A stretch of 64,000 nucleotides of DNA, taken from NCBI GenBank assembly GCA_043810865.1, contig JBDRNS010000020.1, positions 17,828 to 81,827 of the forward strand, read 5' to 3'. Below are positions 44,286-63,707 of the stretch, in pieces. The notes under the pieces are model-generated. The model made no database searches. It was not told the DNA's origin and saw only the letters and a list, made by a program, of their open reading frames with translations. Source of the stretch: an archaeon. Lineage in GTDB: Archaea; Nanobdellota; Nanobdellia; Pacearchaeales; GW2011-AR1. The position numbers were made by a program, and so were the translations under genes. Position 1 is the first letter of the stretch, and each line of letters opens with the position of its first letter.

Positions 44286-45392
44286 ATGAATGAAATAAAC
44301 TTTTCAACAAGTGTAAAAGAGATTAAAGAAAGGGTTTTGCAAATTTTTGATAATTTTGACAAAGAAGTTAAAAAAGGAGAGAGAAAAAAAGCATTTATTA
44401 CGGGAATTACTGGGCAAGATGGCTCATATTTAGCTGAATTTTTGTTAAAAAAAGGATACGAAGTTCATGGATTGGTAAGAAGGGTAGCTTTGGAGGACCC
44501 ACATCACAGACTTAAAAGAATTTACCATATAAAGAACAAATTAATTTTACATCCAGGAAATATAGAAAGCTATTCCCGTTTAATAGATTTATTTGATAAA
44601 ATTCAACCAGATGAATGTTATCATCTAGCAGCACAAAGCTTTGTACACGAATCTTTTGAAGATTCTTTCTCTACCTTCATTACAAATATTCAGGGGACAC
44701 TTAATATACTAACTGCTCTCAAAAATAGATCTCCAAAATGTAGATTTTATTTTGCGGCATCATCAGAAATGTTTGGAAAAGTTGAAGAAATACCTCAAAC
44801 AGAAAAAACTCCTTTTCATGCACGTTCCCCATATGGGATTACAAAAGTTACTGGCTTTGATCTAACAAGAAATTTCAGGGAGTCTTACAATATTTTTGCG
44901 TGCAGTGGAATACTATTCAATCACGAATCTCCAAGGAGAGGTCATGAATTTGTTACCAGAAAAATAACCTCTTCAATATCAAAAATAAAAGAAAATCAGG
45001 ATTTTTGTTTAGGACTTGGAAATTTAAATGCAAAAAGAGACTGGGGTTTTGCAGAAGATTATGTTGAGGCAATGTGGCTAATGCTACAGCAAGAAAAACC
45101 AGAAGACTACGTGATATCTACAGGAGAGACCCATACAGTAAGAGAGTTTGTTGAAGAAGCATTCAAGGTCGCAGGCTTGCTCCCAATAACATGGCATGGT
45201 GAAGGCATCAATGAAATTGGAAAACATAATGGGAAAATAGTTATAAAGATTGATGAAAACTTTTCTAGGCCTGCAGAAGTTGACCTTCTTGTTGGAGATT
45301 TTTCAAAAGCAAAAACAAATCTTAATTGGAAACCAAGAACAAAATTTGAAGATCTTGTTAGAATAATGATTAAAGAAGATTTAAAAAAATAA
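44286..45392 (+). CDS. gmd: GDP-mannose 4,6-dehydratase (paralog 1)
   Basis: AFITGITGQDGSYLAEFLLKKGYEVHGLVRR, SSEMFG, SPYGITK (YxxxK) and ILFNHESPRRG. It carries a roughly 35-aa N-terminal extension. Confidence 0.9.
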   Translation: MNEINFSTSVKEIKERVLQIFDNFDKEVKKGERKKAFITGITGQDGSYLAEFLLKKGYEVHGLVRRVALEDPHHRLKRIYHIKNKLILHPGNIESYSRLIDLFDKIQPDECYHLAAQSFVHESFEDSFSTFITNIQGTLNILTALKNRSPKCRFYFAASSEMFGKVEEIPQTEKTPFHARSPYGITKVTGFDLTRNFRESYNIFACSGILFNHESPRRGHEFVTRKITSSISKIKENQDFCLGLGNLNAKRDWGFAEDYVEAMWLMLQQEKPEDYVISTGETHTVREFVEEAFKVAGLLPITWHGEGINEIGKHNGKIVIKIDENFSRPAEVDLLVGDFSKAKTNLNWKPRTKFEDLVRIMIKEDLKK

Positions 45393-46657: not shown

Positions 46658-47065
46658 ATGATTATGGAAACACTTGAGAAAGATGGAAAAAGATTTGCAT
46701 TTGTTATAAGAAAAGACTCAAACATCCAAGGTAAAGAATTTCTAAGCAAAGATGAAGATTTAATTCAAGTTGGTTTTATGAATCTCAAAAAGGGAGATTC
46801 AATTGACCCCCATTTTCATAAATTTTATGAAAGAAAAATTGAGAGAACGTCTGAAGTAATATATATTTTAGAGGGAAAGGTCAAGGTTAATATATATGAA
46901 AATAAAAAGAAAGTGATAGATACAATAATTGAAAAAGGGGATTTGATTGTTCTTTTATCCGGGGGGCATGGATTCGAGATTTTAGAAGACACTAAATTCT
47001 TTGAAGTCAAACAAGGGCCTTTTATTGGAGCTGAAAATGATAAAGAAAAATTTGAGGAAAAATGA
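46658..47065 (+). CDS. Cupin-fold protein (WxcM/WbuC-like, possible sugar ketoisomerase)
   Basis: Small beta-barrel pattern with HFH...E (DPHFHKFYERKIERTSEVIYILEG). It is coupled (ATGA overlap) to the downstream sugar aminotransferase. Confidence 0.5.
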   Translation: MIMETLEKDGKRFAFVIRKDSNIQGKEFLSKDEDLIQVGFMNLKKGDSIDPHFHKFYERKIERTSEVIYILEGKVKVNIYENKKKVIDTIIEKGDLIVLLSGGHGFEILEDTKFFEVKQGPFIGAENDKEKFEEK

Positions 47066-48186
47066 TTCCAGTATGTAAACCTTGGTTGCCGGGTAAAGAA
47101 AAAGAATATCTTAATGATGCCATAAATACTAATTGGATAAGTAGTAATGGAAAATATATCACTAAATTTGAGGAAGAATTCTCTAAATTTTGTGGGACCA
47201 AATATGGAATTAGTTGTTCTAGTGGATTTGGAGCATTGCATTTGGCTTGTGCAGCACTAGGTTTAAAAAAAGGTGATGAAGTCATAGTTCCTAACTTTAC
47301 AATGATTGCACCCATCAATGCCATAATATTAACAGGAGCAAAACCTGTTCTAGTTGATGCAGACCCTAAAACATTTTGTATTGATGTTAATCTAATAGAG
47401 AAAAAAATTACTAAGAAAACTAAAGCAATTATTCCTGTACACATTTATGGACACCCTTGTGACATGGACCCTATTCTAGAGTTAGCTAAAAAATATAATC
47501 TTTTCGTTATTGAAGATTCTGCAGAAGCACATGGTGCAGAATATAAAAATAAGAAATGTGGAAGCATGTCTGATATTAGCTGTTTTAGTTTTTATGCTAA
47601 TAAAATATTGACAACGGGGGAAGGAGGAATGTGTGTCACAAATAACCCAGAACTAGCAGAAAAAATTAGAAAATTAAGAAATCATGCTTTTGAAGTGCCA
47701 CGTTTTACACATAATGAAATTGGTTTTAATTATAGATTAACAAATCTTCAGGCAGCAATAGGATTTGCCCAAGCAGAAAATGCTGACATGTTAGTGGAAT
47801 CGAGAAGAAATATTGGAATTCAATATAATCAGTTCCTTAAAGAGGTAGGGGGATTAATTCTTCCTGTAGAAGAACCTTATGCTAAAAATGTTTATTGGAT
47901 GTATGGGGTTGTTTTGACGGACGAAATTAAGACAAGTAGGGAAGAAATTGTTAATAAATTAAGAGAAAAGGGGGTTGATACTAGAAATTTTTTTATTCCC
48001 GTGCATAAACAACCTGTTTTTATTAAGGGAGAAATAGAAAATGCTCCAGATTGCTCTGGAAACTTTGAAATATCTGATAAAATAAGCGAAAGGGGTTTTT
48101 ATCTTCCTAGTTCTAGTGATCTAAAAAAGGAGGAAATTCAATCTATTTGTGAGATATTAAAAGAAATTTTATCAAAAAATCAATAA
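47062..48186 (+). CDS. DegT/DnrJ/EryC1/StrS-family PLP-dependent sugar aminotransferase
   Basis: Family pattern: DAINTNWISSNGKY, VIEDSAEAHGAEY, SFYANKILTTGEGGM (catalytic Lys) and NYRLTNLQAAIG. Confidence 0.85.
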   Translation: MIPVCKPWLPGKEKEYLNDAINTNWISSNGKYITKFEEEFSKFCGTKYGISCSSGFGALHLACAALGLKKGDEVIVPNFTMIAPINAIILTGAKPVLVDADPKTFCIDVNLIEKKITKKTKAIIPVHIYGHPCDMDPILELAKKYNLFVIEDSAEAHGAEYKNKKCGSMSDISCFSFYANKILTTGEGGMCVTNNPELAEKIRKLRNHAFEVPRFTHNEIGFNYRLTNLQAAIGFAQAENADMLVESRRNIGIQYNQFLKEVGGLILPVEEPYAKNVYWMYGVVLTDEIKTSREEIVNKLREKGVDTRNFFIPVHKQPVFIKGEIENAPDCSGNFEISDKISERGFYLPSSSDLKKEEIQSICEILKEILSKNQ

Positions 48187-52542: not shown

Positions 52543-53684
52543 TTATTATTTTTATTTTTTAAAATTTTTTTTATCACTTCACAGTATTTTTCAATGTCCT
52601 GTTCTGTTAAAAGATATGAACTTGGAAGATTGATACCTCTGGAAGAAATGTCGTAAGACACTGGATTATCCTTTTCTGAACCTGTTTTATATCTCCTATA
52701 AGCAGATAAAGAAGATAGGGGGTAGAAAAAAGGTCTTACAAGAAGACCTTTTTCTTCTATCTTAGCCATTATTTCATCTTTTGTTATATTGTGTGAATTC
52801 CCAATTACCAAGGAAGAAAGCCACGCACCATTATAAATTTCTTCTGAATCAAGATTAAATTGTAGATCATCTATGTTAGATAGTCTTTCTTTATATTTAT
52901 GAAATATCCATCTTTTTTTATCAATTATTTCTTTCAATCTAGTGAATTGGGCATATCCTAATGCGGCACCCAAATTATTGGGCATATATTTTGGAGAGGG
53001 AGTAAGTATATCATGAACATTTTCAGGATATCTTCCATGATCTCTCAGTATTTTGGCTTTTTTGTAAAGTTCCTCGTCATCAAGAAGAAGGATTCCTCCT
53101 TCTCCCCCTGTAGTTATTGTTTTTGTAGAATGAAAGCTAAAAACAGAACCTATACCAAACTTTCCTGCTTTAATTCCTTTGTATGTTGAGCCAAGAGCTT
53201 CTGCAGAATCTTCTATAATCGGGATATTATATTTTTTGGAAATTTCCGTTATTCTTTCCATATCTGGCATGTTTCCATAAAGATCAACAATTATTATTGC
53301 CTTTGTTTTGTTTGAAATCTTTTTTTCAATAGATTCTGGATCAGCACACCAATTTTTTTCGTCCACATCACAAAAAACAGGGATGGCTTTGCAATATGTT
53401 ATGGGTGCCGCTGTAGCAGTCCATGTAAGATCAGGAACTATTATTTCATCCCCTTCCCCAATACCCAGAGAAAGAAGCAATAAATGGATGGCTTGAGTAC
53501 AATTAGGAGTCATAAGAGCATATTTCCTATTATGATATTCTGCAAAATCTTTTTCGAATTTCTCTATGTAATAATTTCTATTATCTCCTAATTTTTCATC
53601 TGTCAGCGCTTCCCCCACAATTTTTCTTTCAACATCAGTTATCCATGGGCCATACATAAATTTTTTATTCTTCTCCTTCTCCAT
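52539..53684 (-). CDS. DegT/DnrJ/EryC1/StrS-family sugar aminotransferase (second copy)
   Basis: IIEDSAEALGSTYKG, SFHSTKTITTGGEGGI and the PNNLGAALGYAQ region. Its stop overlaps the downstream sulfotransferase start. Confidence 0.85.
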   Translation of the reverse strand: MEKEKNKKFMYGPWITDVERKIVGEALTDEKLGDNRNYYIEKFEKDFAEYHNRKYALMTPNCTQAIHLLLLSLGIGEGDEIIVPDLTWTATAAPITYCKAIPVFCDVDEKNWCADPESIEKKISNKTKAIIIVDLYGNMPDMERITEISKKYNIPIIEDSAEALGSTYKGIKAGKFGIGSVFSFHSTKTITTGGEGGILLLDDEELYKKAKILRDHGRYPENVHDILTPSPKYMPNNLGAALGYAQFTRLKEIIDKKRWIFHKYKERLSNIDDLQFNLDSEEIYNGAWLSSLVIGNSHNITKDEIMAKIEEKGLLVRPFFYPLSSLSAYRRYKTGSEKDNPVSYDISSRGINLPSSYLLTEQDIEKYCEVIKKILKNKNNK

Positions 53685-53866
53685 TTTTCAAATATTATTA
53701 TTTCTTTTAGTATAAACTTCATAAATTGCTTTTTATTATTTGTGAAACTATGATTGGTATCTTCCAGTGAAGTTTTAAAAGTAAATAGTATGATAAACTT
53801 TAAATAGATTTATTGAATTTTTGAGTCATAAGAATTAATCGAAAAATATTGATAAACTAAATAAAA

Positions 53867-54982
53867 ATGGCTAAAAAAATAATAAAAATTGATTTTAGGT
53901 ATTATTGGGGGCATTTTAATCCTGAAGACAACATCATAATCAATCTTTTGAAAAAAGATTACAATGTAATTATAGACAAGGACAATCCAGATTATGTTTT
54001 TTATTCTACATATGACAAAAAAAGACCCATAAATTCCAAAACTTTCGGGAGGATTGGAATATTTATTGAAAGAAATTTTCCTAATCTTTACAGAGTATTA
54101 AGGGATGTATACTATTTCAGAAGAGAAAGATGGAAAATGCCTGTTATTGAGGGTGATTTTGTAAAGATTTTTTTCACAGTGGAGAATGCAATTCCCAATA
54201 TGAATAAGTGCGACTGGGCATTCACTAATGAATTTGATGAAATATTAAAACATCCGAGACACCTGAGAATTTCAAACTACACCTTTTACTCTGTAAAAGA
54301 CCCAAAAGCACTCATAAAGGACAAAAATTACAACCCTGAAAAAATTCTGAAAGAGAAGAAAAAATTCTGTGTATTCATCTGTTCCAACGACGTGGCTTTC
54401 AGAAATAAATTTTTCAAGGCGCTTTGTAAATACAAAAAAGTTGAATCCTGGGGGAAAGTGCTGAATAACATGGGAAAAGGAATTCCAAAAGTTTACGAGA
54501 TAGAAGGCAAAAAATCAAAAAAAGAAACAAGAAGATATATTCCTGAAGGATTTTTGAAACAGTATAAATTCATAATAGCTTTCGAGAATGCATCCCATAG
54601 AGGTTATACTTCGGACAGAAAAATAGAGCCAATGATGGCAAATTGCATCCCAATATATTGGGGAAATCCTTTAGTTCATTGGGAGTTTAACACAAAAAGC
54701 TTTGTTAATTATCATGAGTTTGAGAAGGAAATTAAAAAAAACATCCCAAAGATAATTTTTGATATTCCTTTAATTGGATGGTTTACAAAAAAACGTGTCG
54801 AGAAAAAAACTTTGAAAAAAGTTATTCAAAGAATCAAAAACCTTGACAAAAATGAGGAGTTATATCTCGAAATGTTAAAAGAGCCATGGTACATTGATAA
54901 CAAGCCTTCGAAATACCTTGACAAGGATTTGATAAGGAAAAGGTTGAAAAAAATTATTGATTCTCCAAAGCAAATTTCTTAA
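53867..54982 (+). CDS. Alpha-1,3/4-fucosyltransferase, family GT10
   Basis: IAFENASHRGYTSDRKIEPMMANCIPIYWGNPLVHWEFNTKSFVNYHEF matches the GT10 signature known from Helicobacter and eukaryotes (FENS..GY.TEK...IPIYWG.P.V..FN.KSFVN.H.F). Confidence 0.85.
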   Translation: MAKKIIKIDFRYYWGHFNPEDNIIINLLKKDYNVIIDKDNPDYVFYSTYDKKRPINSKTFGRIGIFIERNFPNLYRVLRDVYYFRRERWKMPVIEGDFVKIFFTVENAIPNMNKCDWAFTNEFDEILKHPRHLRISNYTFYSVKDPKALIKDKNYNPEKILKEKKKFCVFICSNDVAFRNKFFKALCKYKKVESWGKVLNNMGKGIPKVYEIEGKKSKKETRRYIPEGFLKQYKFIIAFENASHRGYTSDRKIEPMMANCIPIYWGNPLVHWEFNTKSFVNYHEFEKEIKKNIPKIIFDIPLIGWFTKKRVEKKTLKKVIQRIKNLDKNEELYLEMLKEPWYIDNKPSKYLDKDLIRKRLKKIIDSPKQIS

Positions 54983-54984
54983 TT

Positions 54985-56223
54985 TTACAGAATGTAGGGA
55001 ATAGGGACAGGAATTATGAATTTTCCTCTAAATCCTTTTTCTCTTAATTTTGGAATAATTATATCTTTTATATTCCATGCTAAAATCAAGGCATGAGTCG
55101 GTTGTGGCTCTTCAAAAAGAACTGATTCTTCTTTAATTGGAATGTGCACACCAGGAGAATATGTGCCTATTTTCAAACTCTTATATTCAAGTAAACAATC
55201 TATAGTTTCTGTTCCAATTTTGCAAAAATTGAGCAGGGTGTTTCCTTTAGCAGGAGCTCCTATGCCCACAATTGTTCCACTTTCATCTTTTATCTTAAAT
55301 AAAATTTCCCTAAATTTTTTCCTATTTTCAAAAACACTTTCAGAAAAAATATCATAAGTTTCTTTAGAGTAAAGGCCAAACTCCTCCTCTTCTTTTAATA
55401 TTCTTAAAATGTTGTCTGAAATCGAATAATCACCTTTATTACAAGCAAAAACCCTCATTGAACCTCCATGTGTCTCTATTCTCTGTGCATCAAAAATATC
55501 CATCCCATATTCATTAAAAAGACATATTAGAGATTTCAAAGAATAATATCTTAAATGTTCTGTATAAATAGAATCATATTCTCTTTTTGATATAAGATCT
55601 ATAACATATCCAGATTCCTCTATAAAAACCCCTTTTTTGTCCAAAAGCATTTTTATGCCTTTCATAAAAGAATCTAGCTCCTTAACGTGTGCAAAAACAT
55701 TTGTTGCAGTTATTATTTTTGCTTTTCCGAATTCACTTAATGTCTTTAATGCAGTTTCTTCATTAAAAAAAAGTTTCAAGGCAGGAATTTTTTTTTGGCT
55801 TGTGAGCTCCGCAGCTTTTGAAGGATCAATATTCAAAACACTTATTTTATATGGAAGATAATTTTCAAGTAAAGTCCCATCATTTCCCCCAATATCTACT
55901 GCAAGATCTCCTTCACTTAAATTGAACCTCCCCATAATAATTTCTACTAAGTCATGGAAATCTCTGACAAGTCCTTTATTTGAACCTGTTGTATAAATAA
56001 AACTATCTGTAAATAAGATTTTTGGGTCGGGAGCATACCCTAGCTGAACCAAACTGCAATCTTCACAAAAATAAACATCCAATGGAAAAAAAATTTCTGG
56101 TTCTTTTATTTTTTCTTCTGTTAAAAAACTACCCGGATTTGGATGATGGCCAAGAGACAAAAATTTATACAAATTGTTTGAAGAGCATATTTGGCATTTT
56201 TGTTTGTTAATTGTTTCAGACAT
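54985..56223 (-). CDS. NDP-hexose C-methyltransferase-like enzyme (Zn-ribbon + class I SAM MTase + C-methyltransferase C-terminal domain)
   Basis: N-terminal CQICSS...CEDCSLVQL, then SAM motif LAVDIGGNDGTLL. Length is about 410 aa. It is a paralog of the N-terminal part of 61473-63707. Confidence 0.75.
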   Translation of the reverse strand: MSETINKQKCQICSSNNLYKFLSLGHHPNPGSFLTEEKIKEPEIFFPLDVYFCEDCSLVQLGYAPDPKILFTDSFIYTTGSNKGLVRDFHDLVEIIMGRFNLSEGDLAVDIGGNDGTLLENYLPYKISVLNIDPSKAAELTSQKKIPALKLFFNEETALKTLSEFGKAKIITATNVFAHVKELDSFMKGIKMLLDKKGVFIEESGYVIDLISKREYDSIYTEHLRYYSLKSLICLFNEYGMDIFDAQRIETHGGSMRVFACNKGDYSISDNILRILKEEEEFGLYSKETYDIFSESVFENRKKFREILFKIKDESGTIVGIGAPAKGNTLLNFCKIGTETIDCLLEYKSLKIGTYSPGVHIPIKEESVLFEEPQPTHALILAWNIKDIIIPKLREKGFRGKFIIPVPIPYIL

Positions 56224-56289
56224 AAAAAATCAAAAAAACGTTTGTTTAAAAAGAATGTGGTTTTATATTCCATTCTGAATAAATTAAAT

Positions 56290-56880
56290 CAAAAATTCCT
56301 AAAAAAAAACAGTTTTTATTCTTATATTTTTTATTTTTTCAAAAGAGAATCATAAATAGCTCTAAAATTATGCCAAACTATCTGGGGTTTATTAAATTCC
56401 ATTTTCTGACGGGATAAAAAGGCAAAACCCTCCTTCATTAAGTGTTATATCTTTAACATCTCCGGAAAAATCAGCAGAATAAACATGTAAAAGCCCACTT
56501 CTTTGCCCACCATCAAAAGCAGTGTCCATAAACGGAAAATCTCCAAAATAATCAATATCATTTTAAAAAAATATCCAATAGAGAGAAGAATCTGTTAAGT
56601 CAAATTCTTTATGTGTTGGTGCTAAAATATCCTTAAATTTCTTTGATTTTAAGATTGCACTTCCTAACTTTCCACTTCCCCGGGTTAAAAGTATTTTTTA
56701 TATTTCATTTAATCCACTTTCAGAATTTTTCCTTTTTCCGTGGGAATGCATGAAACCCGTAAGTATTCCTCTTCCGAGCTTAAATCAACTCTTTTATCAA
56801 CCATATCCTTTGTTCCATTAATAAGGTGCAATAAGATTCCTTGTTTTAATTTAGAGTGTATTTTTTCCCTTTTATAGTAT
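56290..56880 (-). pseudogene. Decayed gene remnants
   Basis: About 680 bp has no ORF of 60 aa or more in any frame, within an otherwise gap-free locus. The minus strand gives short, mutually out-of-frame fragments. One (56563-56694) reads ILLTRGSGKLGSAILKSKKFKDILAPTHKEFDLTDSSLYWIFF*, which resembles the N-terminal Rossmann start of an NDP-sugar reductase/epimerase with a damaged GxxGxxG. Confidence 0.5.
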
Positions 56881-56904
56881 AAAAATAAAAGTTTATGTTT
56901 GTTT

Positions 56905-57423: not shown

Positions 57424-58515
57424 TTAATATTGGATTTTGTAATTTATTTTCTTGGCAAGATCTTTTCCTTTTTCAATATAAAATTCATCTGTCTTTTTAT
57501 CTCCATCTATTGGTACTAAACCTCTTTGTTCCAATTTTTCTTTTAGATCATGAACAACCATCATTTTTACAAGATCCTTAAACTTTGTTTTTGGTTCCCA
57601 TCCTAAAATCCTTTTTGCCTTAAAAGAATCACCTAAAAGTGCAGGAACTTCTGCAGGTCTTTTATACCCTTCATTTATTTCAACAAATTGTTCCCAATTT
57701 AAATCAAAAATTCCAAATGCCTCCCTGACAAAATCTTTAACAGTGTGTGTTTCTTCCGTGGATATAACAAAATCATCTGGTTTATCATGTTGGAGAATTC
57801 TCCACATTGCTTCAACATATTCTTTTGCAAAACCCCAATCTCTCTTTGCATCCAAATTACCAAGAATCATCTTATTTTTTTCCCCTGTGATTATCTTTGC
57901 CAACTCAAGAGTTATTTTCTTTGTAACAAAGTTCCAACCACGCCTTGGAGATTCATGGTTAAACAAAATCCCATTTGATGCAAAAATCCCATGAGCATTT
58001 CTGTACATTTTTGTTAAATGATATGCCCCCAACTTAGAAATTCCATAAGGGCTTTGTGGCAGCATAGGTGTATTTTCATTTTGCGGGGGTGAAGAAATTC
58101 CAAACATTTCGCTTGAAGAAGCCTGATAAAATTTACAGTTTAATTTCATATCTTTTATGGCTTCCAGAATTCTTAGTGTTCCCAACAAATTATAATTAAT
58201 TGTTGATTCCGGATTTTTAAAACTTATTCCAACATGGCTTTGGGCACCGAGATTATAAATTTCGTCTGGCTTAACTTCTTCAAGAGCGTTTCTAATGCTG
58301 ACACCATCAGATAAATCTGCATATATTGTGTAATAAATGGAGTCCTCTTTGTTTCCGTGCACGTCCAAGTGCTCTATCCTTTTTTCGTTTGGCAAACTGG
58401 CACGCCTTATAACGCCTCTCACCAAATAACCTTTTGACAATAAAAATTCAGCAAGATAAGACCCATCTTGCCCCCCTATCCCTGTAATAAATGCTACTTT
58501 TTCTCCGTTTATCAT
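57424..58515 (-). CDS. gmd: GDP-mannose 4,6-dehydratase (paralog 2)
   Basis: VAFITGIGGQDGSYLAEFLLSKGYLVRGVIRR, SSEMFG, SPYGISK and ILFNHESPRRG. Confidence 0.9.
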   Translation of the reverse strand: MINGEKVAFITGIGGQDGSYLAEFLLSKGYLVRGVIRRASLPNEKRIEHLDVHGNKEDSIYYTIYADLSDGVSIRNALEEVKPDEIYNLGAQSHVGISFKNPESTINYNLLGTLRILEAIKDMKLNCKFYQASSSEMFGISSPPQNENTPMLPQSPYGISKLGAYHLTKMYRNAHGIFASNGILFNHESPRRGWNFVTKKITLELAKIITGEKNKMILGNLDAKRDWGFAKEYVEAMWRILQHDKPDDFVISTEETHTVKDFVREAFGIFDLNWEQFVEINEGYKRPAEVPALLGDSFKAKRILGWEPKTKFKDLVKMMVVHDLKEKLEQRGLVPIDGDKKTDEFYIEKGKDLAKKINYKIQY

Positions 58516-58657: not shown

Positions 58658-60172
58658 TCACAAATTAGAATCAAATATGTCTATCTCAAAGTTGTTGTTA
58701 TCAATTTCGTTTTTTAGTCTTTGATGTATTTTTTCAAATATCTCGACATGCTCTTTATTGTCCTTGTGCAAAGGCTGCATCGTCTTGAATAAGAGCATGC
58801 AGATTATCTTTGCCTGTTTTATCTCTTCCTCATTAAAGTATTTTTTTAATAATTCAATAAACATTAACTTTCTTTCTCTCAAATGTTCGTTATACAGGAA
58901 AACAGAATTGTTTACATTGTAAAGCCCGAATTTTACCAAGTTGTAGTCATAAATTACAGAATGTAAAAGTTTTGCCAAGTCATAATACTTGCAATTCATG
59001 ACCCTTCCGTGGGGATCTACAAGGTATATCTTGTTCTGGTCAAAAAGCATGTTGCCGAGATGATAATCTCCATGGCTTATGACACTTCTTTTGTCTATAA
59101 TGTCAATATAGTTCAAGTAATTCTGCAAATTTCTGGAATACAAAATATTTTTCAAGGAATAATCTTCAGATTCATAGGAGAACACATCTATCACTCTTCT
59201 CAATTCAGAAAGAAGTATGATAAACAGCCTTTCATAATATTCCAATTCATTTTCCTTGAAGATGTATATATAATCAATGGGGAGTCCTCCAACTTTTTCC
59301 ATTTGCAATATTATTTCCCTGTTTTGGAATGACAAATCAAGCTTGCCAGGAATTTTTATGAATTTATATACATTCTTTTCACTTAGGAGTTTTAGATGCA
59401 AATACTCGGTAATGAGTTTTGTATCTGTTGACTTTTTTTCAAAAAGTTCTTCATTTTCCTGAAATGAATTAAAGAACCTTCCCATGTTAAAGTTATTTAT
59501 TCTCAAAAAATCATCTATATTTCCTATGTCTGTTACTCCAAAATTTAACAACTTGAACTTCTTCCTTGACACATATTTCTTAAGAAGCTGGGAAAATTGA
59601 TATTCTGTTTTTATTAGTGGTTCTTCCTTTTCAAAAACCTCATTCAGGCACTCAAGGGCAAAATCCTTGTCTTTAAAAAAATATAATCCTGAGAGGGCCT
59701 TGGAAGTGTCAGGTCTTGTTATAGGCTTATCATAAAAATTCAGATTGTCATCCACCATACACCATCTGGAAAAATCGGGCACAATTTGGATGCCTAGAAA
59801 GTCGCTTGTAAAGTCTAGGAATTGGGCATTATCTTTCAAAATCATATCCCCGAGATGGATTAAAAAGGGATTCTTAATATGATTCCTGCATGCATAAATT
59901 GCCCCCAATGGCCCGTTAATCTCTGTTTGCTCAACAATAACAAATTCATCGTTTCTTAAATTTTTTTTGAGAAAATCAACAATTTTTTCTTTTTTATGAT
60001 TTACTACAAAAATAAATCTCAAATTGTAGTCGCTTTTTTTTAAAGAATCAATTATGTGCTGCAGAACAGTTTTATTTTTGTAAGGCAATAATGATTTATG
60101 ATAATGTGACAATGCCTCAAATCTGGTTCCCTTGCCTGCAAGAGGGATTATTACATCAATATCCATATTCAT
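58658..60172 (-). CDS. Bifunctional sugar-phosphate nucleotidyltransferase (N-terminal) / APH-choline-kinase-like kinase (C-terminal)
   Basis: The N-terminus has IIPLAGKGTRF (the NTP-transferase G-x-G-T-R loop). The C-terminus has ISHGDYHLGNMLF...IYLVDPHG (Brenner/APH catalytic motif plus a DxxG Mg site). Confidence 0.7.
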   Translation of the reverse strand: MNMDIDVIIPLAGKGTRFEALSHYHKSLLPYKNKTVLQHIIDSLKKSDYNLRFIFVVNHKKEKIVDFLKKNLRNDEFVIVEQTEINGPLGAIYACRNHIKNPFLIHLGDMILKDNAQFLDFTSDFLGIQIVPDFSRWCMVDDNLNFYDKPITRPDTSKALSGLYFFKDKDFALECLNEVFEKEEPLIKTEYQFSQLLKKYVSRKKFKLLNFGVTDIGNIDDFLRINNFNMGRFFNSFQENEELFEKKSTDTKLITEYLHLKLLSEKNVYKFIKIPGKLDLSFQNREIILQMEKVGGLPIDYIYIFKENELEYYERLFIILLSELRRVIDVFSYESEDYSLKNILYSRNLQNYLNYIDIIDKRSVISHGDYHLGNMLFDQNKIYLVDPHGRVMNCKYYDLAKLLHSVIYDYNLVKFGLYNVNNSVFLYNEHLRERKLMFIELLKKYFNEEEIKQAKIICMLLFKTMQPLHKDNKEHVEIFEKIHQRLKNEIDNNNFEIDIFDSNL

Positions 60173-60225: not shown

Positions 60226-60882
60226 TTAATCAAGAGACTCTCTTATTTTCTTAGCATAATCCACTAAATGCCATGGTAAATCTGATTGTGGAAATAAAAA
60301 AGGAGTGCCATCTTCATTTTTTTGCGATGGCCAATTTGCCATTCTTAATAATTCTTCTATAACCTCCTTTTGATCAACAGCATTTAGGGGATCAAAATAA
60401 TATCCAGATGTAACGCGCTCAAACCTAGTATTACCAAAATTCTCTCCATAAGGTTCAACCCTTGACATTACATCCATCATCCCTGCAAGCCTTCTAGATG
60501 ATGTAGTATGGGCCAGAAGAGCAATTAAGTCATGTTCTAAACCTTCTCTTAGAATAACATCCAAAGAATTCACGCAATTCTCCGCCCCATTAGAAGCCCT
60601 AGTTTCTAAATAAATTACATCAGAAGGAACCCCAAATTCTTTTATTGCTAAATTTCCTAAATACTCTGCTTCAGAAACAGCTAGGTCTCCAGAATCCTTC
60701 CCAACTCCTCCTGTAAACAAAAAATATCCTGATTTTCTTTTAGCATAAAGTTCTCCTGCTTTTTCCGCCAATAAAGGGTCTGCCCTTCCAAACACAATTG
60801 TTCCCTGAACAGAATCAAATTCTGTGGGTTTATTCATATAGTCAAATATTTCCTGTATTTTTTTGGTGTCTATATCAACCAT
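60226..60882 (-). CDS. DUF218 (YdcF/ElyC-like) domain protein
   Basis: IVFGRADPLLAEKAGELY...FLFTGGVGKDSG and ETRASNGAEN fit the pattern typical of DUF218. Confidence 0.55.
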   Translation of the reverse strand: MVDIDTKKIQEIFDYMNKPTEFDSVQGTIVFGRADPLLAEKAGELYAKRKSGYFLFTGGVGKDSGDLAVSEAEYLGNLAIKEFGVPSDVIYLETRASNGAENCVNSLDVILREGLEHDLIALLAHTTSSRRLAGMMDVMSRVEPYGENFGNTRFERVTSGYYFDPLNAVDQKEVIEELLRMANWPSQKNEDGTPFLFPQSDLPWHLVDYAKKIRESLD

Positions 60883-60943: not shown

Positions 60944-61396
60944 TTAAAAAAAAACTTTGTTTATTTTTATGCACGCATCACAAACAGCGCCTTCTCCCGA
61001 ATTTGAAGGAGTCACATAATCCGCCCATTTCTTTGCCTCTATTCTTGCGTTTGAGGGAGCTATGCCGAATTTACAATCTCTAATTATCTTAGCATCAAAA
61101 ATTCCATCGCCCATGAAAATAGTGTTCTCAAAACCGAAATTTTTTCTTAACCATTCGTACCTGTCTCCTTCTACTACAAGTTTTATTTTGTAACCCATAT
61201 CATCTACCCTTTTTTTGGAGATTGAAAACCCTCTTTTGTCTGCACTTATAAAAAGAATATTCACTTTGTCTTTTATCAATTTCAAGCCATCTGCGTCATG
61301 CGCCCCAAAGACCTTGTAAACTTTTCCTTTAGAACTGTAAAGAAATTGTCCAGTGGTCATCACGCCATCTATGTCAATTATTAAATTTAACTTCAT
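60944..61396 (-). CDS. HAD-IIIA phosphatase, KdsC-like (sugar-acid or sugar-phosphate phosphatase)
   Basis: IIDIDGVMTTG (DxDGVxTDG-like motif I), ISADKR and FMGDGIFDAKI (motif IV GDxxxD). Length is 150 aa. Confidence 0.7.
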   Translation of the reverse strand: MKLNLIIDIDGVMTTGQFLYSSKGKVYKVFGAHDADGLKLIKDKVNILFISADKRGFSISKKRVDDMGYKIKLVVEGDRYEWLRKNFGFENTIFMGDGIFDAKIIRDCKFGIAPSNARIEAKKWADYVTPSNSGEGAVCDACIKINKVFF

Positions 61397-61472: not shown

Positions 61473-63707
61473 TTAATCTTTCAAATCTTTTTCAACCATT
61501 AACTGAGCTATTTCTTTGAATTTAAATTTTGGGTTAAATCCAAAAGCCCCTTTAGCTTTTCTAATATCTCCAATTAGAGTGCTTGTTCTAGTGGGTCTAA
61601 AAAATCGGGGATCAAATCCAACATATTCTCTTCCAGTATTCTTATCATATCCAATCTCATTCAACCCCTCTCCTTTCCAATTTATATTTATTCCAACACA
61701 TTTAAAGGATTCTTCTAAAAATTCTTTAACACTATGAGATTCTCCTGTTGCTATAATAAAATCATCTGGTTTATCCAACTGCATTATGCTCCATGCAGCC
61801 TCCATATATTCCTTTGAATACCCCCAATCAATCTTTGCACTAATATCTCCTAAATATAATTTATTTTGCTCACCTTTATGTATTTTAGCAACGGCCTTAG
61901 TTATTTTTCTTGTGACATAAGAGTCAGTTCTTCTAGGAGATTCATGATTGTAAAAAATAGCAGTAGATATAAACAATCCTCTTCTTCTATAATACTTAAC
62001 CCAATGATAAGCGGAGGCCTTGGCACACGCGTAAGGACTATTTGGATTTAATTTAGTGTCTTCATTTTGAGGAATGCTTTCATTCTCAACTTCTCCGAAC
62101 ATATTAGAAGTTAATGGTTGAAAAAACTTTATTTTTGGATTTATTTTATTAATTGCTTCAATAATTCTTACAACCCCTCCACTGGTTATATTATGACTAT
62201 ATTCTGGAGAATCATAACTCCAACCAATATGATCTTGATCCGCTTCATTATAAATCTCCTCAGGCATAACCTCTTCCATAATCCTATATATTGAACTAGA
62301 ATCAGCTAAGTCTCCTCTATGAACTTTAATTTTATCCATTATATGATCAATATTCTTTGTATTTCCTGTTGCAGATTTTCTTAAAACACCATGTACCTCA
62401 TATCCTTTTTCTAAAAGAACCTCTGCTAAATAACTCCCATCTTGTCCGGTAATCCCAAATATAAGAGCTTTTTTCTTATTTTCTCCAGATTTATTATATT
62501 CACTCCCTTTCGCATAAACTTCCAGCTTAGGAGTCACAAAAATAAATTTCCCCCCTGATTGAATCCATTCATGTTCTCTCTTAATAAAAGATTCTCTAAA
62601 TGCATAAGGTAAAACAAGAAAATAATCTGCATTTCTTTTAGCTTCCTCTTCAGAAATAATTGGAATATTACTTCCAACAGTATATTTTCCAAATTTTTCT
62701 TCACTAATCTCCGCAATCCCAGTTATGAGTCGGCCATCCAACCCATAATCTTGTAGAATAGTGTTTCCTTTTGTACTTGCACCATATCCATAAACTTTTT
62801 TCCCTTCAGAAACAATTTTCCTAATAAATTCCACACATTCTTGCTTATTCTTTTCTATTCTATCCGCAAGATCTAGATAGCTTTTCTTTGTTATATTCTC
62901 CTGATAGTCAATGCTGCCAGTTTTATAGTGTCTTGCAAATAATCTATAACTTCCTCCATTAATTGAATTTTCTTCAACCTTAAATATCTCTAGTCCATTC
63001 TTTTCAAATAAATATTTCAAAGATTCATATGAATAATACTCAATATGTTCATGGCAAATGTTTCCTACATCATTTTTCTCAAGCATAGGTTTAGAAGTCA
63101 TTAATTGAGCAATAAAGATTCCATTTTCATCTAATGCTTTAACTGCATCCCTAATAAATTGATTAGGGTCATCCATATCATAGAACATCCCAATAGCTGT
63201 AATTATCTTAGCCTTTTGATTTTCAAAAAGATGTTTGTATTTATCATAATTCCAAAAATCAGGAATAACAATTTCAGAATTTTTTTTCATTCCTTCAATC
63301 AAATTTTTTGCAGGTTCACAGCCCACTCTAATAACCTCTTTAGGATAAAAACTTAGTAATGTTCCATCATTAGCTCCTATATCCAAAACCATATCTCCTG
63401 ATTTCAAATCTGCCATATCTCTTCCAACTTCTGTTATCTCTTTAAGATCGTTGATAATAACTTGATTCAATCCGGAACGATACCAATAATGTCCTGAATA
63501 CATAAGCTCTTGTGGAGCTGTATGCTCTAGCTGCACCAATGTACAATTATTACACCACACCAATGTTAACGGAGCCTTTCCAATACTATCTCCTGGCCTA
63601 TCAATGAAAGTAGAAATATGCAAATCACCTAAAGAAAAAAGTCTTTCTAAATTATAAGACCCACACACCCTGCACTTTTCTATACCTATTCTTTCCATTT
63701 TTTTCAT
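61473..63707 (-). CDS. Fusion protein: C-methyltransferase-like domain (about aa 1-405) + GDP-mannose 4,6-dehydratase domain (about aa 410-744, paralog 3)
   Basis: The N-terminal part has CRVCGS...CNNCTLVQL and VLDIGANDGTLL, paralogous to 54985-56223. The C-terminal part has ALIFGITGQDGSYLAEVLLEKGYEVHGVLRK, TSNMFG, SPYACAK and IFYNHESPRR. It is one uninterrupted 744-codon frame. Confidence 0.8.
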   Translation of the reverse strand: MKKMERIGIEKCRVCGSYNLERLFSLGDLHISTFIDRPGDSIGKAPLTLVWCNNCTLVQLEHTAPQELMYSGHYWYRSGLNQVIINDLKEITEVGRDMADLKSGDMVLDIGANDGTLLSFYPKEVIRVGCEPAKNLIEGMKKNSEIVIPDFWNYDKYKHLFENQKAKIITAIGMFYDMDDPNQFIRDAVKALDENGIFIAQLMTSKPMLEKNDVGNICHEHIEYYSYESLKYLFEKNGLEIFKVEENSINGGSYRLFARHYKTGSIDYQENITKKSYLDLADRIEKNKQECVEFIRKIVSEGKKVYGYGASTKGNTILQDYGLDGRLITGIAEISEEKFGKYTVGSNIPIISEEEAKRNADYFLVLPYAFRESFIKREHEWIQSGGKFIFVTPKLEVYAKGSEYNKSGENKKKALIFGITGQDGSYLAEVLLEKGYEVHGVLRKSATGNTKNIDHIMDKIKVHRGDLADSSSIYRIMEEVMPEEIYNEADQDHIGWSYDSPEYSHNITSGGVVRIIEAINKINPKIKFFQPLTSNMFGEVENESIPQNEDTKLNPNSPYACAKASAYHWVKYYRRRGLFISTAIFYNHESPRRTDSYVTRKITKAVAKIHKGEQNKLYLGDISAKIDWGYSKEYMEAAWSIMQLDKPDDFIIATGESHSVKEFLEESFKCVGININWKGEGLNEIGYDKNTGREYVGFDPRFFRPTRTSTLIGDIRKAKGAFGFNPKFKFKEIAQLMVEKDLKD

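What the first reader, a model, noticed from the sequence alone, without database searches (positions are those of the whole stretch)
61473..63707. Single-polypeptide fusion of a C-methyltransferase-like enzyme with GDP-mannose 4,6-dehydratase
One uninterrupted 744-codon frame joins a Zn-ribbon/SAM C-methyltransferase module to a complete GMD module. NDP-hexose C-methyltransferases act on 4-keto-6-deoxy intermediates, which are exactly the GMD product. The fusion therefore suggests channelling toward a GDP-linked branched-chain (C-methylated) 6-deoxyhexose. The same two activities also occur unfused nearby (C-MT 54985-56223 and GMD 57424-58515). I do not know of a described fusion of this type, and C-methyl sugars are not an established component of archaeal glycans.
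Basis: partly seen in the sequence, partly recalled or inferred. Interest (0 to 1): 0.66.

Follow-up and report, generated by a model that had tools for sequence, protein, structure and literature searches.

The report
Sugar C-methyltransferase fused to Glu-less GMD paralog
The fused gene is real and recurs in many tiny archaea, but its "GDP-mannose dehydratase" half lacks the residue needed for dehydration; it belongs to a widespread, uncharacterised enzyme family that always partners with a sugar C-methyltransferase, probably to make an unusual methyl-branched GDP-sugar.

Summary
The 744-codon ORF (61473-63707, minus strand) and its domain order are confirmed: Zn-ribbon/SAM/C-terminal C-methyltransferase (MT), a ~9-15-aa flexible linker, then a full-length GMD-like SDR. 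The fusion recurs in more than 40 independent protein clusters, so it is not an assembly artefact.

The SDR half is not a canonical GDP-mannose 4,6-dehydratase. The sole dehydration residue (human Glu157) is Asn535. The module scores below the NCBIfam gmd cutoff. It belongs to a monophyletic "SDR-N" clade (bootstrap 93/100) with a fixed signature: E157N, S112D, A110D, R247I.

In 62 of 70 genomes from many bacterial and archaeal phyla, MT and SDR-N are separate adjacent genes (ATGA overlap). Only DPANN-type archaea fuse them. They travel with a GDP-perosamine-synthase-like aminotransferase, a small cupin, a GDP-mannose-hydrolase-like Nudix, and often a true GMD. All five fused loci with adequate flanks, the window included, have a true GMD 1-3.5 kb away. 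The MT is a fusion hub (GMD-MT, MT-cupin, MT-Nudix).

Best reading: the unfused GMD makes the 4-keto sugar, the MT C-methylates it, and SDR-N handles the C4 carbonyl, most likely as an NADPH 4-ketoreductase. The direction is unresolved. This is a new variant of a known pathway type and has not been characterised experimentally.

The parts
61473..63707 (-). Whole fused ORF, 744 aa plus stop (MT-linker-SDR-N). Identical to NCBI MFH1325769.1 from its second ATG onward.
62502..63707 (-). C-methyltransferase half (aa 1-402). It contains a 4-Cys Zn ribbon (C12, C15, C52, C55; 63498-63674), a SAM domain with LDIGANDGT (62985-63413), an HEH motif H219-E220-H221 (63045-63053) and a Methyltransf_14 C-terminal domain (62529-62891).
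   Evidence: Pfam. PDB hits are MtmC 4rv9 at 9e-43 and TcaB9/KijD1 at 1e-25, with EH aligned to TcaB9 E224/H225. These residues are invariant in alignment A1. Coordinates.
62475..62501 (-). Inter-domain linker (aa 403-411; the wider junction covers aa 395-411, 62475-62525). Predicted to be disordered.
   Evidence: pLDDT is below 50 for residues 403-410. Unfused relatives have an ATGA stop/start overlap at the equivalent point.
61476..62474 (-). SDR-N half (aa 412-744): a GMD-derived extended SDR that keeps GxxGxxG, the R443-K-S NADP motif, T533, Y559 and K563 but lacks the dehydration Glu.
62103..62105 (-). Asn535 codon (AAT) at the position of the GMD catalytic Glu (human E157, E. coli E135).
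   Evidence: Across the clade this position is N in 33, T in 8 and H in 2 members.
62232..62246 (-). Clade-specific acidic cluster E488-A-D490-Q-D492, replacing L-x-A-Q-S of GMDs ('NLxAQSHV' becomes 'NEADQDHI').
61830..61832 (-). Ile626 at the position of the conserved 'RDW' Arg (human R247).
57424..58515 (-). Canonical GMD (SSE, AQSHV, KRDW; TIGR01472 420 bits, above cutoff), co-directional and 2.96 kb downstream of the fusion. Probable supplier of GDP-4-keto-6-deoxymannose.
44286..45392 (+). Second canonical GMD (TIGR01472 440 bits), next to the cupin-DegT pair.
46658..47065 (+). 135-aa HxH cupin of the same family that accompanies MT/SDR-N elsewhere (170 bits to the cassette-cupin HMM). This family is fused to the MT in 8 protein clusters.
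47062..48186 (+). DegT-family aminotransferase with the catalytic Lys retained. Best solved relative is GDP-perosamine synthase (3bn1, 1.3e-95).
54985..56223 (-). Second, unfused C-methyltransferase of a different subfamily (29% identical to the fused MT, about 30% to all fusion-type MTs).
53867..54982 (+). GT10 fucosyltransferase-like glycosyltransferase (a family that uses GDP-sugar donors). Candidate transferase for a GDP-6-deoxyhexose product.
   Evidence: for the domain hit. The donor type is from general knowledge of the GT10 family.

Best explanation
The ORF is a genuine, lineage-specific fusion (DPANN-type archaea) of two enzymes that most other organisms encode as adjacent, translationally coupled genes. 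One is a TcaB9/TylC3/MtmC-type nucleotide-sugar C-methyltransferase. The other is 'SDR-N', a paralog derived from GDP-mannose 4,6-dehydratase that keeps the NADP(H) site and the Ser/Thr-Tyr-Lys redox triad but has lost the single Glu that GMDs need for water elimination. SDR-N can therefore do redox chemistry at C4 but not canonical 4,6-dehydration. Proposed route, with the third and fourth steps inferred: (1) the unfused canonical GMD (57424-58515 or 44286-45392) converts GDP-mannose to GDP-4-keto-6-deoxymannose. (2) The MT half uses the acidity next to the 4-keto group to add a methyl group from SAM, most likely at C3. (3) The SDR-N half reduces the 4-keto group with NADPH, giving a GDP-6-deoxy-3-C-methylhexose. 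This matches GMD -> C-MT -> Fcl in a cyanophage operon and in the proposed Coxiella virenose route, and the gmd-fcl-gmm layout of the colanic acid operon. (4) A conserved cupin and a perosamine-synthase-like aminotransferase belong to the same pathway network. They probably epimerise or aminate the same 4-keto intermediates to give an amino variant. Shown here: the fusion, its recurrence, the loss of the catalytic Glu, the separate clade, the gene-neighbourhood statistics and the fusion network. Inferred: substrate, methylation position and the direction of the C4 redox step.
For: 1) The fusion is real: 47 MT>SDR clusters among the top 120 hits, from NCBI, JGI, ENA, Logan and Tara. 2) Glu157 is replaced by Asn535 in an ungapped alignment to solved GMDs. 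In 43 clade members this position is N/T/H, none of which is an acid or base. S112D, A110D and R247I/V are near-invariant, while 29 canonical domains keep E, S, A and R. PMC8987622 gives the GMD signature [ST]SE..Yx3K with Glu as the only extra catalytic residue. The module is below the TIGR01472 cutoff. 3) SDR-N forms one clade of 110 tips with no intruders and NJ bootstrap 93/100. 4) In 70 species-level genomes, MT and SDR-N are contiguous in every case and fused in 8. Unfused pairs overlap by ATGA. 5) A canonical GMD is present in 32 of 70 loci. It sits in operons such as GMD-MT-Nudix-SDR-N (L045, L053) and L019, and lies within 3.5 kb in all 5 fused loci with adequate flanks, including the window. 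6) Rosetta-stone network around the MT: GMD-MT (20 clusters), MT-GMD, MT-cupin (8), MT-Nudix (5) and Nudix-MT-SDR-N. 7) GDP linkage is supported by DegT being closest to GDP-perosamine synthase at 1e-95, the Nudix being closest to GDP-mannose mannosyl hydrolase, and retention of GMD's nucleotide-sugar binding motifs. 8) Reductase precedent: three characterised GMDs have weak Rmd (4-reductase) activity (bioRxiv 10.1101/854612). The cyanophage DSL-LC02 operon is canonical GMD - C-MT - Fcl. SDR-N is the only oxidoreductase near the MT in 64 of 70 loci. The NADP-type RRS/RKS motif is kept. 9) In the MtmC pathway, C-methylation is followed by a 4-ketoreductase (PMC10269268).
Against: 20 of the 35 fully flanked SDR-N loci have no Glu-type dehydratase within 10 kb, so GMD supply is not demonstrated there. 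A perosamine-synthase-like DegT accompanies SDR-N in 32 of 35 loci. If it aminates C4, a 4-ketoreductase would be redundant in the same linear pathway. The coordinated E157N and S112D swap could instead be a relocated catalytic carboxylate (topology argument only). SDR-N is far closer to GMD (1e-94) than to the known reductase RMD (2pk3, 1e-20). No biochemical data exist for any member, and the methylation site (C3 or C5) cannot be read from sequence.
Confidence: 0.42

Rival explanations
1. Redox-neutral 'borrowed hydride' partner. Like its GMD ancestor, SDR-N keeps NADP+ bound. It oxidises C4 of a non-keto GDP-sugar (GDP-mannose, or a GDP-3-amino-3,6-dideoxyhexose made by GMD + cupin + DegT), hands the transient 4-keto sugar to the MT for C-methylation, and then returns the hydride to C4. 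The product would be a C-methyl sugar, with no separate dehydratase or reductase needed for this step.
For: It explains the descent from an enzyme that already runs an oxidise-then-reduce cycle with the dehydration residue lost. It explains the invariable contiguity and fusion with the MT. It explains the 20 of 35 loci without a nearby GMD and the loci L039 and L040 that have only MT-Nudix-SDR-N. The new acidic cluster could bind an amino sugar. 3-C-methyl-D-mannose, which is not 6-deoxy, exists in nature (PMC12961483).
Against: The intermediate would have to leave and re-enter the SDR site, yet the model shows a floppy linker and no interface. The probable RR-loop Arg (R64) is lost, which hints at altered cofactor or oligomer contacts rather than tighter binding (mapping tentative). 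GMD is strongly enriched next to the pair. I know of no precedent for an SDR/MT relay of this kind.
Confidence: 0.18
2. Net C4-dehydrogenase, functionally like Cj1427. SDR-N oxidises GDP-mannose to GDP-4-keto-mannose without deoxygenation. The MT methylates it, the cupin epimerises it, and the perosamine-synthase-like DegT aminates C4. The product would be a GDP-4-amino-4-deoxy-3-C-methylhexose. Where GMD co-occurs, it gives the 6-deoxy version.
For: It uses SDR-N, MT, cupin and DegT in one linear path and makes every observed fusion join consecutive steps. DegT co-occurs in 32 of 35 loci and is perosamine-synthase-like. In L083 a canonical GMD-MT fusion + Nudix + DegT occurs without SDR-N, as if GMD and SDR-N were alternatives. 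In C. jejuni, a C4-dehydrogenase and a 4,6-dehydratase coexist in one cluster and share downstream enzymes (PMC10680097).
Against: The NADP-type cofactor motif is retained, and sugar-nucleotide dehydrogenases usually use NAD+ (general knowledge). SDR-N is not detectably close to Cj1427-type proteins among PDB hits at E<=1e-10. The operons GMD-MT-Nudix-SDR-N (L045, L053) look like a complete dehydratase-to-reductase pathway. The regiochemistry of DegT is not established.
Confidence: 0.14
3. SDR-N is still a 4,6-dehydratase, and the catalytic carboxylate has moved from the beta5 loop (E157) to the beta4 loop (D492 or D490). The fusion then joins dehydratase and C-methyltransferase as consecutive steps.
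For: E157N and S112D change together and both are near-invariant. The loops after beta4 and beta5 are neighbours in the Rossmann sheet (topological inference). Overall identity to GMDs is 45-50%, with all nucleotide-sugar binding motifs kept. Many cassettes lack any other dehydratase nearby. True GMD-MT fusions show that this pairing is selected elsewhere.
Against: Every known NDP-sugar 4,6-dehydratase keeps an acid/base at the 157 position (PMC8987622 Table 1). Canonical GMD and SDR-N sit in the same operon in many genomes, which would be redundant. A second Glu-less lineage (E to M/H/L, without the Asp gain) is also paired with MTs, next to canonical GMD-MT fusions (L082, L061, L065). That points to a non-dehydratase role for these Glu-less SDRs.
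Confidence: 0.12
4. Artefact: the fusion is a frame-restoring assembly or sequencing error joining two adjacent genes.
For: Close relatives (L014, 71% identity) have two genes with an ATGA overlap, so one indel could fuse them. The junction contains G6 and A6 runs.
Against: More than 40 fused clusters from independent projects and assemblers share a comparable extra linker segment. Fused forms are concentrated in one part of the SDR-N tree. The window's linker has about 12 extra in-frame residues rather than a simple read-through.
Confidence: 0.02

Closest known systems
[quoted passage not shown]
   Same: Full-length alignment at 45-50% identity (E about 1e-94). Same extended-SDR fold motifs, NADP-type RRS motif, Ser/Thr-Tyr-Lys triad, and the NHESPRR and VTRKIT motifs.
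   Different: The catalytic Glu is Asn, S112 is Asp, A110 is Asp, R247 is Ile and R64 is Asn. The score is below the equivalog cutoff. It forms a separate clade that always partners with a C-methyltransferase.
Proposed Coxiella burnetii virenose route (GMD CBU0689 -> TylCIII-like C-MT CBU0691 -> Fcl/4-reductase) and the Synechococcus phage DSL-LC02 operon GMD-MT-Fcl
   Same: A GDP-linked dehydratase -> C-methyltransferase -> C4-reductase logic. The MT belongs to the same Zn-ribbon/Methyltransf_14 family (PMC3539893, PMC3204966; phage).
   Different: In those systems the reductase is a GMER/Fcl-type enzyme and all genes are separate. Here the slot after the MT is filled by a GMD-derived SDR and is fused to the MT. 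Only the Coxiella GMD step has been shown experimentally.
MtmC / TcaB9 / KijD1 / EvaC nucleotide-sugar C3-methyltransferases
   Same: Best solved relatives of the MT half (4rv9 at 9e-43; TcaB9 at about 1e-25). The Zn ribbon, SAM motif and E-H catalytic pair are conserved. MtmC itself combines C-methylation and 4-ketoreduction (PMC10269268).
   Different: Those enzymes act on dTDP-2,6-dideoxy or 3-amino sugars in actinomycete antibiotic pathways. MtmC does both reactions in a single domain. Here a separate SDR domain is appended and the context is GDP-sugar and cell-surface glycan genes.
[quoted passage not shown]
   Same: The proposed chemistry: NADPH reduction of the C4 keto group of a GDP-6-deoxy-4-hexulose on a GMD-like scaffold (bioRxiv 10.1101/854612).
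   Different: Only distant in sequence (2pk3 at 1e-20, against 1e-94 for GMDs). SDR-N is an independent offshoot of GMD.
Cj1427 GDP-heptose C4-dehydrogenase of Campylobacter jejuni
   Same: A GDP-sugar SDR that makes a 4-keto sugar without 6-deoxygenation and coexists with a 4,6-dehydratase in one cluster (PMC10680097). It is a functional model for the rival reading.
   Different: Not a close sequence relative. It uses tightly bound NAD(H) recycled with alpha-ketoglutarate, and no C-methyltransferase is involved.
EvaA-E (epivancosamine) / TcaB9 pathways for 3-amino-3-C-methyl sugars
   Same: The same five enzyme classes as the conserved cassette: Nudix-fold protein, DegT aminotransferase, C3-MT, cupin and SDR reductase (pathway recalled from memory).
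   Different: The Nudix here is about 140 aa and GDPMH-like, whereas EvaA is a two-domain protein of about 470 aa. It is missing from one third of loci and from the window. The nucleotide is GDP, not dTDP.

Membership tests
GDP-mannose 4,6-dehydratase (TIGR01472 / EC 4.2.1.47) | Extended-SDR fold with N-terminal GxxGxxG and NADP-type RR(S) motif | tested here: met
   GITGQDG and R443-K-S are present. PF16363 matches 1-332 of 332 at 7e-107.
GDP-mannose 4,6-dehydratase (TIGR01472 / EC 4.2.1.47) | Ser/Thr ... Tyr-x3-Lys redox triad | tested here: met
   T533, Y559 and K563 align with T155, Y179 and K183.
GDP-mannose 4,6-dehydratase (TIGR01472 / EC 4.2.1.47) | Catalytic Glu in the [ST]-S-E motif, the sole acid/base for C5-C6 water elimination (PMC8987622) | tested here: not met
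   The motif reads T-S-N (Asn535). Across the clade the position is N in 33, T in 8 and H in 2, against E in 29 of 29 canonical domains.
GDP-mannose 4,6-dehydratase (TIGR01472 / EC 4.2.1.47) | Score at or above the curated equivalog cutoff (415 bits) | tested here: not met
   390.9 bits. The window's two unfused GMDs score 420.1 and 440.1.
GDP-mannose 4,6-dehydratase (TIGR01472 / EC 4.2.1.47) | Converts GDP-mannose to GDP-4-keto-6-deoxymannose | not testable with these tools
   Needs an enzyme assay.
TcaB9/TylC3/MtmC-type NDP-hexose C-methyltransferase (PF08421 + class I MT + PF08484) | N-terminal four-Cys zinc ribbon | tested here: met
   C12, C15, C52 and C55 are present. PF08421 scores 43 bits against a cutoff of 31.3.
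TcaB9/TylC3/MtmC-type NDP-hexose C-methyltransferase (PF08421 + class I MT + PF08484) | SAM-binding class I fold with a glycine-rich motif I | tested here: met
   LDIGANDGT is invariant in A1. PF13489 scores 47.5 bits.
TcaB9/TylC3/MtmC-type NDP-hexose C-methyltransferase (PF08421 + class I MT + PF08484) | C-terminal sugar-binding domain PF08484 and full-length similarity to solved members | tested here: met
   PF08484 scores 106 bits. 4rv9 matches at 9e-43 over residues 9-404.
TcaB9/TylC3/MtmC-type NDP-hexose C-methyltransferase (PF08421 + class I MT + PF08484) | Catalytic Glu-His pair (TcaB9 E224/H225; residue roles recalled from memory) | tested here: met
   H219-E220-H221 aligns with 'DEH'/'HEH' of TcaB9-type and MtmC sequences and is invariant in A1.
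TcaB9/TylC3/MtmC-type NDP-hexose C-methyltransferase (PF08421 + class I MT + PF08484) | SAM-dependent C-methylation next to a 4-keto group; position C3 versus C5 | not testable with these tools
   Needs assay and NMR.
RMD-type GDP-4-keto-6-deoxymannose 4-reductase | Sequence membership (close similarity to characterised RMDs) | tested here: not met
   2pk3 matches at 1e-20 and 6x3b at 4e-11, against GMDs at about 1e-94. SDR-N may work like an RMD but is not a member of that family.
SDR-N clade (defined here) | Signature E-D-D-P-[ST]-S-[NTH]-Y-K-[IVL] at human GMD positions 108/110/112/153/155/156/157/179/183/247, plus adjacency or fusion to a Methyltransf_13/14 MT | tested here: met
   The window reads E D D P T S N Y K I. 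It lies inside the 110-tip clade with bootstrap 93/100.
Cj1427-like non-dehydrating GDP-sugar C4-dehydrogenase | Sequence relationship to Cj1427; NAD(H) tightly bound | tested here: inconclusive
   No Cj1427-type entry appears among PDB hits at E<=1e-10. Cofactor binding cannot be tested here.

The most novel reading that the evidence does not exclude
SDR-N is a 'dehydratase without dehydration'. It keeps NADP+ bound, transiently oxidises C4 of an ordinary (non-keto) GDP-sugar so that the attached methyltransferase can C-methylate it, and then returns the hydride. This would be a two-domain, redox-neutral C-methylation machine making sugars such as GDP-3-C-methylmannose or a 3-amino-3-C-methyl sugar without any separate dehydratase or reductase. 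A variant of this reading is that the carboxylate relocated to Asp492 acts as a base at a carbon other than C5.
Probability: 0.18. Interest if true: 0.8.

Novelty: new variant of a known kind. Interest (0 to 1): 0.5.

Why it matters
There are four reasons.

1. **Annotation.** Hundreds of database entries, this one included, are labelled "GDP-mannose 4,6-dehydratase" although they lack the residue that defines that activity. A simple signature (Glu157 to Asn/Thr, Ser112 to Asp, Arg247 to Ile/Val, next to a Methyltransf_13/14 gene) separates them.

2. **Enzymology.** SDR-N is a natural experiment on how a 4,6-dehydratase scaffold is repurposed. It is directly testable with GDP-mannose, SAM and NADP(H).

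3. **Glycobiology.** The MT/SDR-N pair, together with a perosamine-synthase-like aminotransferase, a cupin and a Nudix, is spread over SAR11, Omnitrophota, Planctomycetes, Patescibacteria and DPANN archaea. This predicts GDP-linked C-methyl-branched (and probably amino) sugars on many uncultured cell surfaces, including archaeal ones, where such sugars have not been reported to my knowledge.

4. **Pathway reconstruction.** The dense network of pairwise fusions around the MT gives an unusually clear Rosetta-stone map of an uncharacterised pathway.

Tried and rejected
- **Recent duplication of the nearby unfused genes.** Rejected: the MT halves are 29% identical and the SDR is 41-45% identical to the unfused GMDs. 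The second C-MT is about 30% identical to every fusion-type MT.
- **Assembly artefact.** Rejected on recurrence.
- **Strict monophyly of every Glu-less SDR.** The first test failed (0/100) because one sequence (L061, His/Val type) had been misclassified. Without it, the 110-tip clade gets 93/100.
- **First Biopython tree attempt.** It timed out.
- **Cupin as a recognisable FdtA/RmlC-type enzyme.** No Pfam or PDB support beyond weak ARD/Cupin_2 hits.
- **Non-orthologous displacement** (MT loci without SDR-N carrying an Fcl/RmlD-type reductase). No such pattern appeared in the 80 genome loci. Only the cyanophage, and Coxiella from the literature, show it.
- **Cassette in E. coli O-antigen or capsule loci with known structures.** Absent from all 5,426 genomes.
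- **Structural roles of Ser112 and Arg247 in GMD from the literature.** Not found in the held papers. PMC2286695 is not held.
- **Prior description of the fusion or subfamily.** None found.
- **Substrate channel.** Not supported by the model.


Full report
**1. The observation**

The window has a single ORF at 61473..63707 on the minus strand, 744 aa. Pfam places four domains along it:
- a Methyltransf_13 zinc ribbon at aa 12-70
- a class I SAM methyltransferase domain at aa 99-241
- the Methyltransf_14 C-methyltransferase C-terminal domain at aa 273-393
- a full-length GDP_Man_Dehyd domain at aa 415-737 (profile 1-332 of 332, E=7e-107)

The junction (aa 395-411, window 62475-62525) is an in-frame linker, '...PKLEVYAKGSEYNKSGENKKKALIFGITGQDG...', and both other frames contain stops. 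An identical protein is in NCBI as MFH1325769.1, 'MAG: GDP-mannose 4,6-dehydratase [archaeon]', on a 108-kb contig. A third GMD-type gene lies at 44286-45392. The fused halves are not recent copies of these genes: the MT halves are 29% identical, and the SDR is 44.5% and 40.7% identical to the two GMDs.

**2. The fusion is real and recurrent**

A search of 5.8 billion proteins returned dozens of full-length relatives with the same Pfam architecture, from NCBI, JGI, ENA, Logan and Tara assemblies. My own domain parsing of the top 120 hits gave:

| Architecture | Clusters |
|---|---|
| MT>SDR | 47 |
| SDR>MT | 20 |
| MT+cupin | 8 |
| MT+Nudix | 5 |
| Nudix-Nudix-MT-SDR (1102 aa, P0032) | 1 |

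This answers the assembly-error worry without needing reads.

**3. The 'GMD' half is not a canonical GMD**

In an ungapped alignment to solved GMDs (7kf3, 2z1m, human 6gpj; E about 1e-94, 45-50% identity), three motifs differ:
- the motif 'ASTSE(L/M)(Y/F)G' reads 'PLTSNMFG'
- 'AQSHV' reads 'DQDHI'
- 'AKRDW' reads 'AKIDW'

The review PMC8987622 gives the GMD signature as [ST]SE...Yx3K and states that this Glu is the only additional catalytic residue used for dehydration.

I compared 43 members of the window's clade with 29 canonical GMD domains. The canonical set comprised the window's two GMDs, GMD domains fused to MTs in other organisms, and three PDB sequences. Using human numbering, the clade shows these changes:
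- E157 to N (33), T (8) or H (2)
- S112 to D (41 of 43)
- A110 to D (42 of 43)
- L108 to E
- A153 to P
- R247 to I or V (43 of 43)
- R64 to N
- E328 to K or R

The clade keeps GxxGxxG, R55, Y179, K183, N208, R214, K222 and R325. In the window these positions are N535, D492, D490, E488, P531, I626, N452 and R707. The N535 codon is AAT, two substitutions from any Glu codon. The module scores 390.9 bits on NCBIfam TIGR01472, below the cutoff of 415, whereas the two unfused GMDs pass at 420 and 440.

A neighbour-joining tree of 181 GMD-like domains puts all 110 sequences carrying this signature in one clade with no intruders and bootstrap 93/100. I call this clade SDR-N.

**4. Fused and unfused forms**

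A scan of one genome per GTDB species returned 80 loci. Seventy of them carry SDR-N, and in every one it is contiguous with the MT.
- Only 8 are fused. These carry Woesearchaeota, Nanoarchaeia or 'Methanosarcinales' MAG labels, and include the window.
- The other 62 have two genes. They come from SAR11 (*Pelagibacter*, including complete genomes), OM43, Omnitrophota, Planctomycetes, Deltaproteobacteria, Chloroflexi, Peribacteria/Peregrinibacteria, Micrarchaeota, Thaumarchaeota and others.
- In close unfused relatives the MT stop and the SDR-N start overlap as ATGA (L014, L075). A small indel would therefore fuse them.
- In the tree, fused forms are concentrated in one region with a few unfused ones interspersed. 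This suggests one or a few fusion events.
- AlphaFold2 on a 24-sequence alignment gives two well-folded domains (mean pLDDT 86.5). The linker 403-410 has pLDDT below 50 and pTM is 0.53, so no defined interface or channel is predicted.

**5. The conserved company**

In about 30 bacterial loci, the ~400-nt space between MT and SDR-N encodes a 140-aa Nudix protein. Its best NCBIfam match is GDP-mannose mannosyl hydrolase, at 74 bits, below cutoff.

A Pfam census of the two nearest genes on each side in 37 loci showed that DegT-family PLP enzymes are the commonest neighbour, with 22 hits. A conserved ~138-aa HxH cupin usually precedes the DegT.

Using HMMs built from these proteins, the 35 loci with at least 9 kb on both sides gave the counts below. 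The cupin, DegT and Nudix were scored within 5 kb of SDR-N; the Glu-type SDR was scored anywhere in the locus (±10 kb).

| Component | Loci |
|---|---|
| DegT | 32/35 |
| Cupin | 29/35 |
| Nudix | 23/35 |
| Glu-type (dehydratase-like) SDR | 15/35 |

The DegT, both the window's 47062-48186 and L024's, is closest to GDP-perosamine synthase (3bn1 at 1e-95 and 7e-93) and keeps the catalytic Lys.

Gene order reveals three units:
- **Module A:** MT-(Nudix)-SDR-N, always contiguous.
- **Module B:** cupin-DegT, contiguous and usually overlapping.
- **Canonical GMD**, attached either to A (L045 and L053: GMD-MT-Nudix-SDR-N; L019: GMD-cupin-MT-Nudix-SDR-N-DegT) or to B.

All five fused loci with adequate flanks (L001, L002, L003, L010 and the window) have a canonical GMD 1.1-3.5 kb away. 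The window also has the cupin (46658-47065, 170 bits), two DegT genes and a GT10 fucosyltransferase-like GT, but no Nudix.

The MT-cupin fusions have MT halves 70-72% identical to the window's, which ties module B to the MT.

Canonical GMD-MT fusions in Patescibacteria are flanked by one of the following:
- a second Glu-less GMD-like SDR (L082: 'AASSMIFG', 'AKVDWG')
- another GMD paralog (L084)
- a Nudix plus DegT (L083)

**6. What it most likely does**

The robust conclusion is that the fused SDR module cannot perform canonical 4,6-dehydration. It is a C4 oxidoreductase functionally locked to a C-methyltransferase, within a GDP-sugar pathway.

I favour the role of terminal NADPH 4-ketoreductase, for these reasons:
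- Operons of the form GMD-MT-Nudix-SDR-N mirror gmd-fcl-gmm.
- A cyanophage operon reads canonical GMD - C-MT - GDP-fucose synthase - GTs. This matches the route proposed for Coxiella virenose (PMC3539893, PMC3204966).
- Characterised GMDs show latent Rmd activity (bioRxiv 10.1101/854612).
- The NADP-type motif is kept.
- SDR-N is the only oxidoreductase near the MT in 64 of 70 loci.
- In the mithramycin pathway, C-methylation by MtmC, the closest solved relative of the MT half, is followed by 4-ketoreduction (PMC10269268).

The methylation site is probably C3 by analogy with MtmC and TcaB9, but this is unproven.

**7. Why this is not settled**

- Twenty of the 35 fully flanked loci have no dehydratase-type SDR within 10 kb.
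- The near-universal perosamine-synthase-like DegT would compete with a reductase for the C4 keto group if both act in one linear path.
- *C. jejuni* shows that a non-dehydrating GDP-sugar C4-dehydrogenase and a 4,6-dehydratase can share a cluster and its downstream enzymes (PMC10680097).
- The coordinated E157N and S112D change could be a relocated catalytic carboxylate. The new acidic cluster could instead bind an amino sugar or loosen NADP(H) binding (note in the notebook).

I therefore keep three mechanistic rivals: redox-neutral transient oxidation, net C4-dehydrogenase and non-canonical dehydratase. Simple assays to separate them are listed under the decisive next steps.

**8. Comparison with what is known, and novelty**

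The MT half passes every sequence-level test for the TcaB9/TylC3/MtmC family. The SDR half fails two defining tests for GMD (the catalytic Glu and the curated cutoff) and is not a member of the RMD family (2pk3 at 1e-20). It may nevertheless work like an RMD.

I found no paper describing the subfamily, the gene pair or the fusion. The search library is limited. The cassette is absent from 5,426 E. coli genomes.

This is a new variant of a known pathway type (dehydratase, then C-methyltransferase, then C4 processing), carried by an uncharacterised and widely mis-annotated GMD paralog.

Noticed in passing
window 56224-56904 (minus strand): A 680-nt stretch with no ORF of 50 aa or more lies between the small Methyltransf_11 gene and the second C-MT. 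One frame reads '...ILLTRGSGKLGSAILKSKKFKDILAPTHKEFDLTD...' before stops. It looks like the decayed N-terminus of an RmlD/4-reductase-like Rossmann gene. Not verified with an HMM.
   Followed up: partly
window 58658-60172 (minus strand): A 504-aa protein with an N-terminal NTP_transferase domain and a C-terminal APH-like kinase domain. It may be a sugar kinase/nucleotidyltransferase fusion. It lies between the MT-SDR-N fusion and the canonical GMD, next to a KdsC-like HAD phosphatase (60944-61396) and a DUF218 protein (60226-60882).
   Followed up: no
window 51691-54982: An archaeal glycan island that contains a GT10 fucosyltransferase-like GT (53867-54982), a sulfotransferase (51691-52542) and a second perosamine-synthase-like DegT (52539-53684; 549 bits to the cassette DegT HMM).
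   Followed up: partly
proteins P0073, P0080, P0101, P0109, P0119: Close relatives of the MT half are interrupted by inteins or homing endonucleases (PF14528, PF14890, PF05204). My HMM sees the MT split in two (P0073: 10-218 and 581-770).
   Followed up: partly
P0032 (NCBI MAF99533.1, Nanoarchaeota; 1102 aa): A triple fusion: two Nudix domains, then the MT, then SDR-N, all in one polypeptide.
   Followed up: partly
L085 4980-8174 (Synechococcus phage DSL-LC02, OR032571.1): A cyanophage carries an operon of canonical GMD - Zn-ribbon C-methyltransferase - GDP-L-fucose synthase - three GTs. This suggests a phage-encoded C-methyl-branched GDP-sugar.
   Followed up: partly
L081 8348-9952; L082 7369-8946; L083 6295-7686 and 14107-15474: B12-binding radical-SAM enzymes sit directly beside the canonical GMD-MT fusions in Patescibacteria glycan loci. 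They may perform further C-methylation or other radical sugar chemistry.
   Followed up: no
L082 9002-9937; L061 11252-12202; L065 11246-12253; P0115: A second, more divergent lineage of GMD-like SDRs is also paired with C-MTs. It lacks the catalytic Glu (Met, His or Leu instead) and the RDW Arg (Val or Ile), but does not have the Asp gains of SDR-N. In the tree it is sister to SDR-N.
   Followed up: partly
P0046; L010 12138-12632: A cytidylyltransferase-like (PF01467) domain is fused to the MT in P0046, and encoded immediately downstream of the MT-SDR-N fusion in L010.
   Followed up: no
L045 (CAMDWI010000004.1): A contig labelled 'MAG: Klebsiella pneumoniae' carries the GMD-MT-Nudix-SDR-N operon. 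The label is doubtful, because the cassette has no counterpart in 5,426 E. coli genomes and only its gmd portion matches there, at about 67%.
   Followed up: partly
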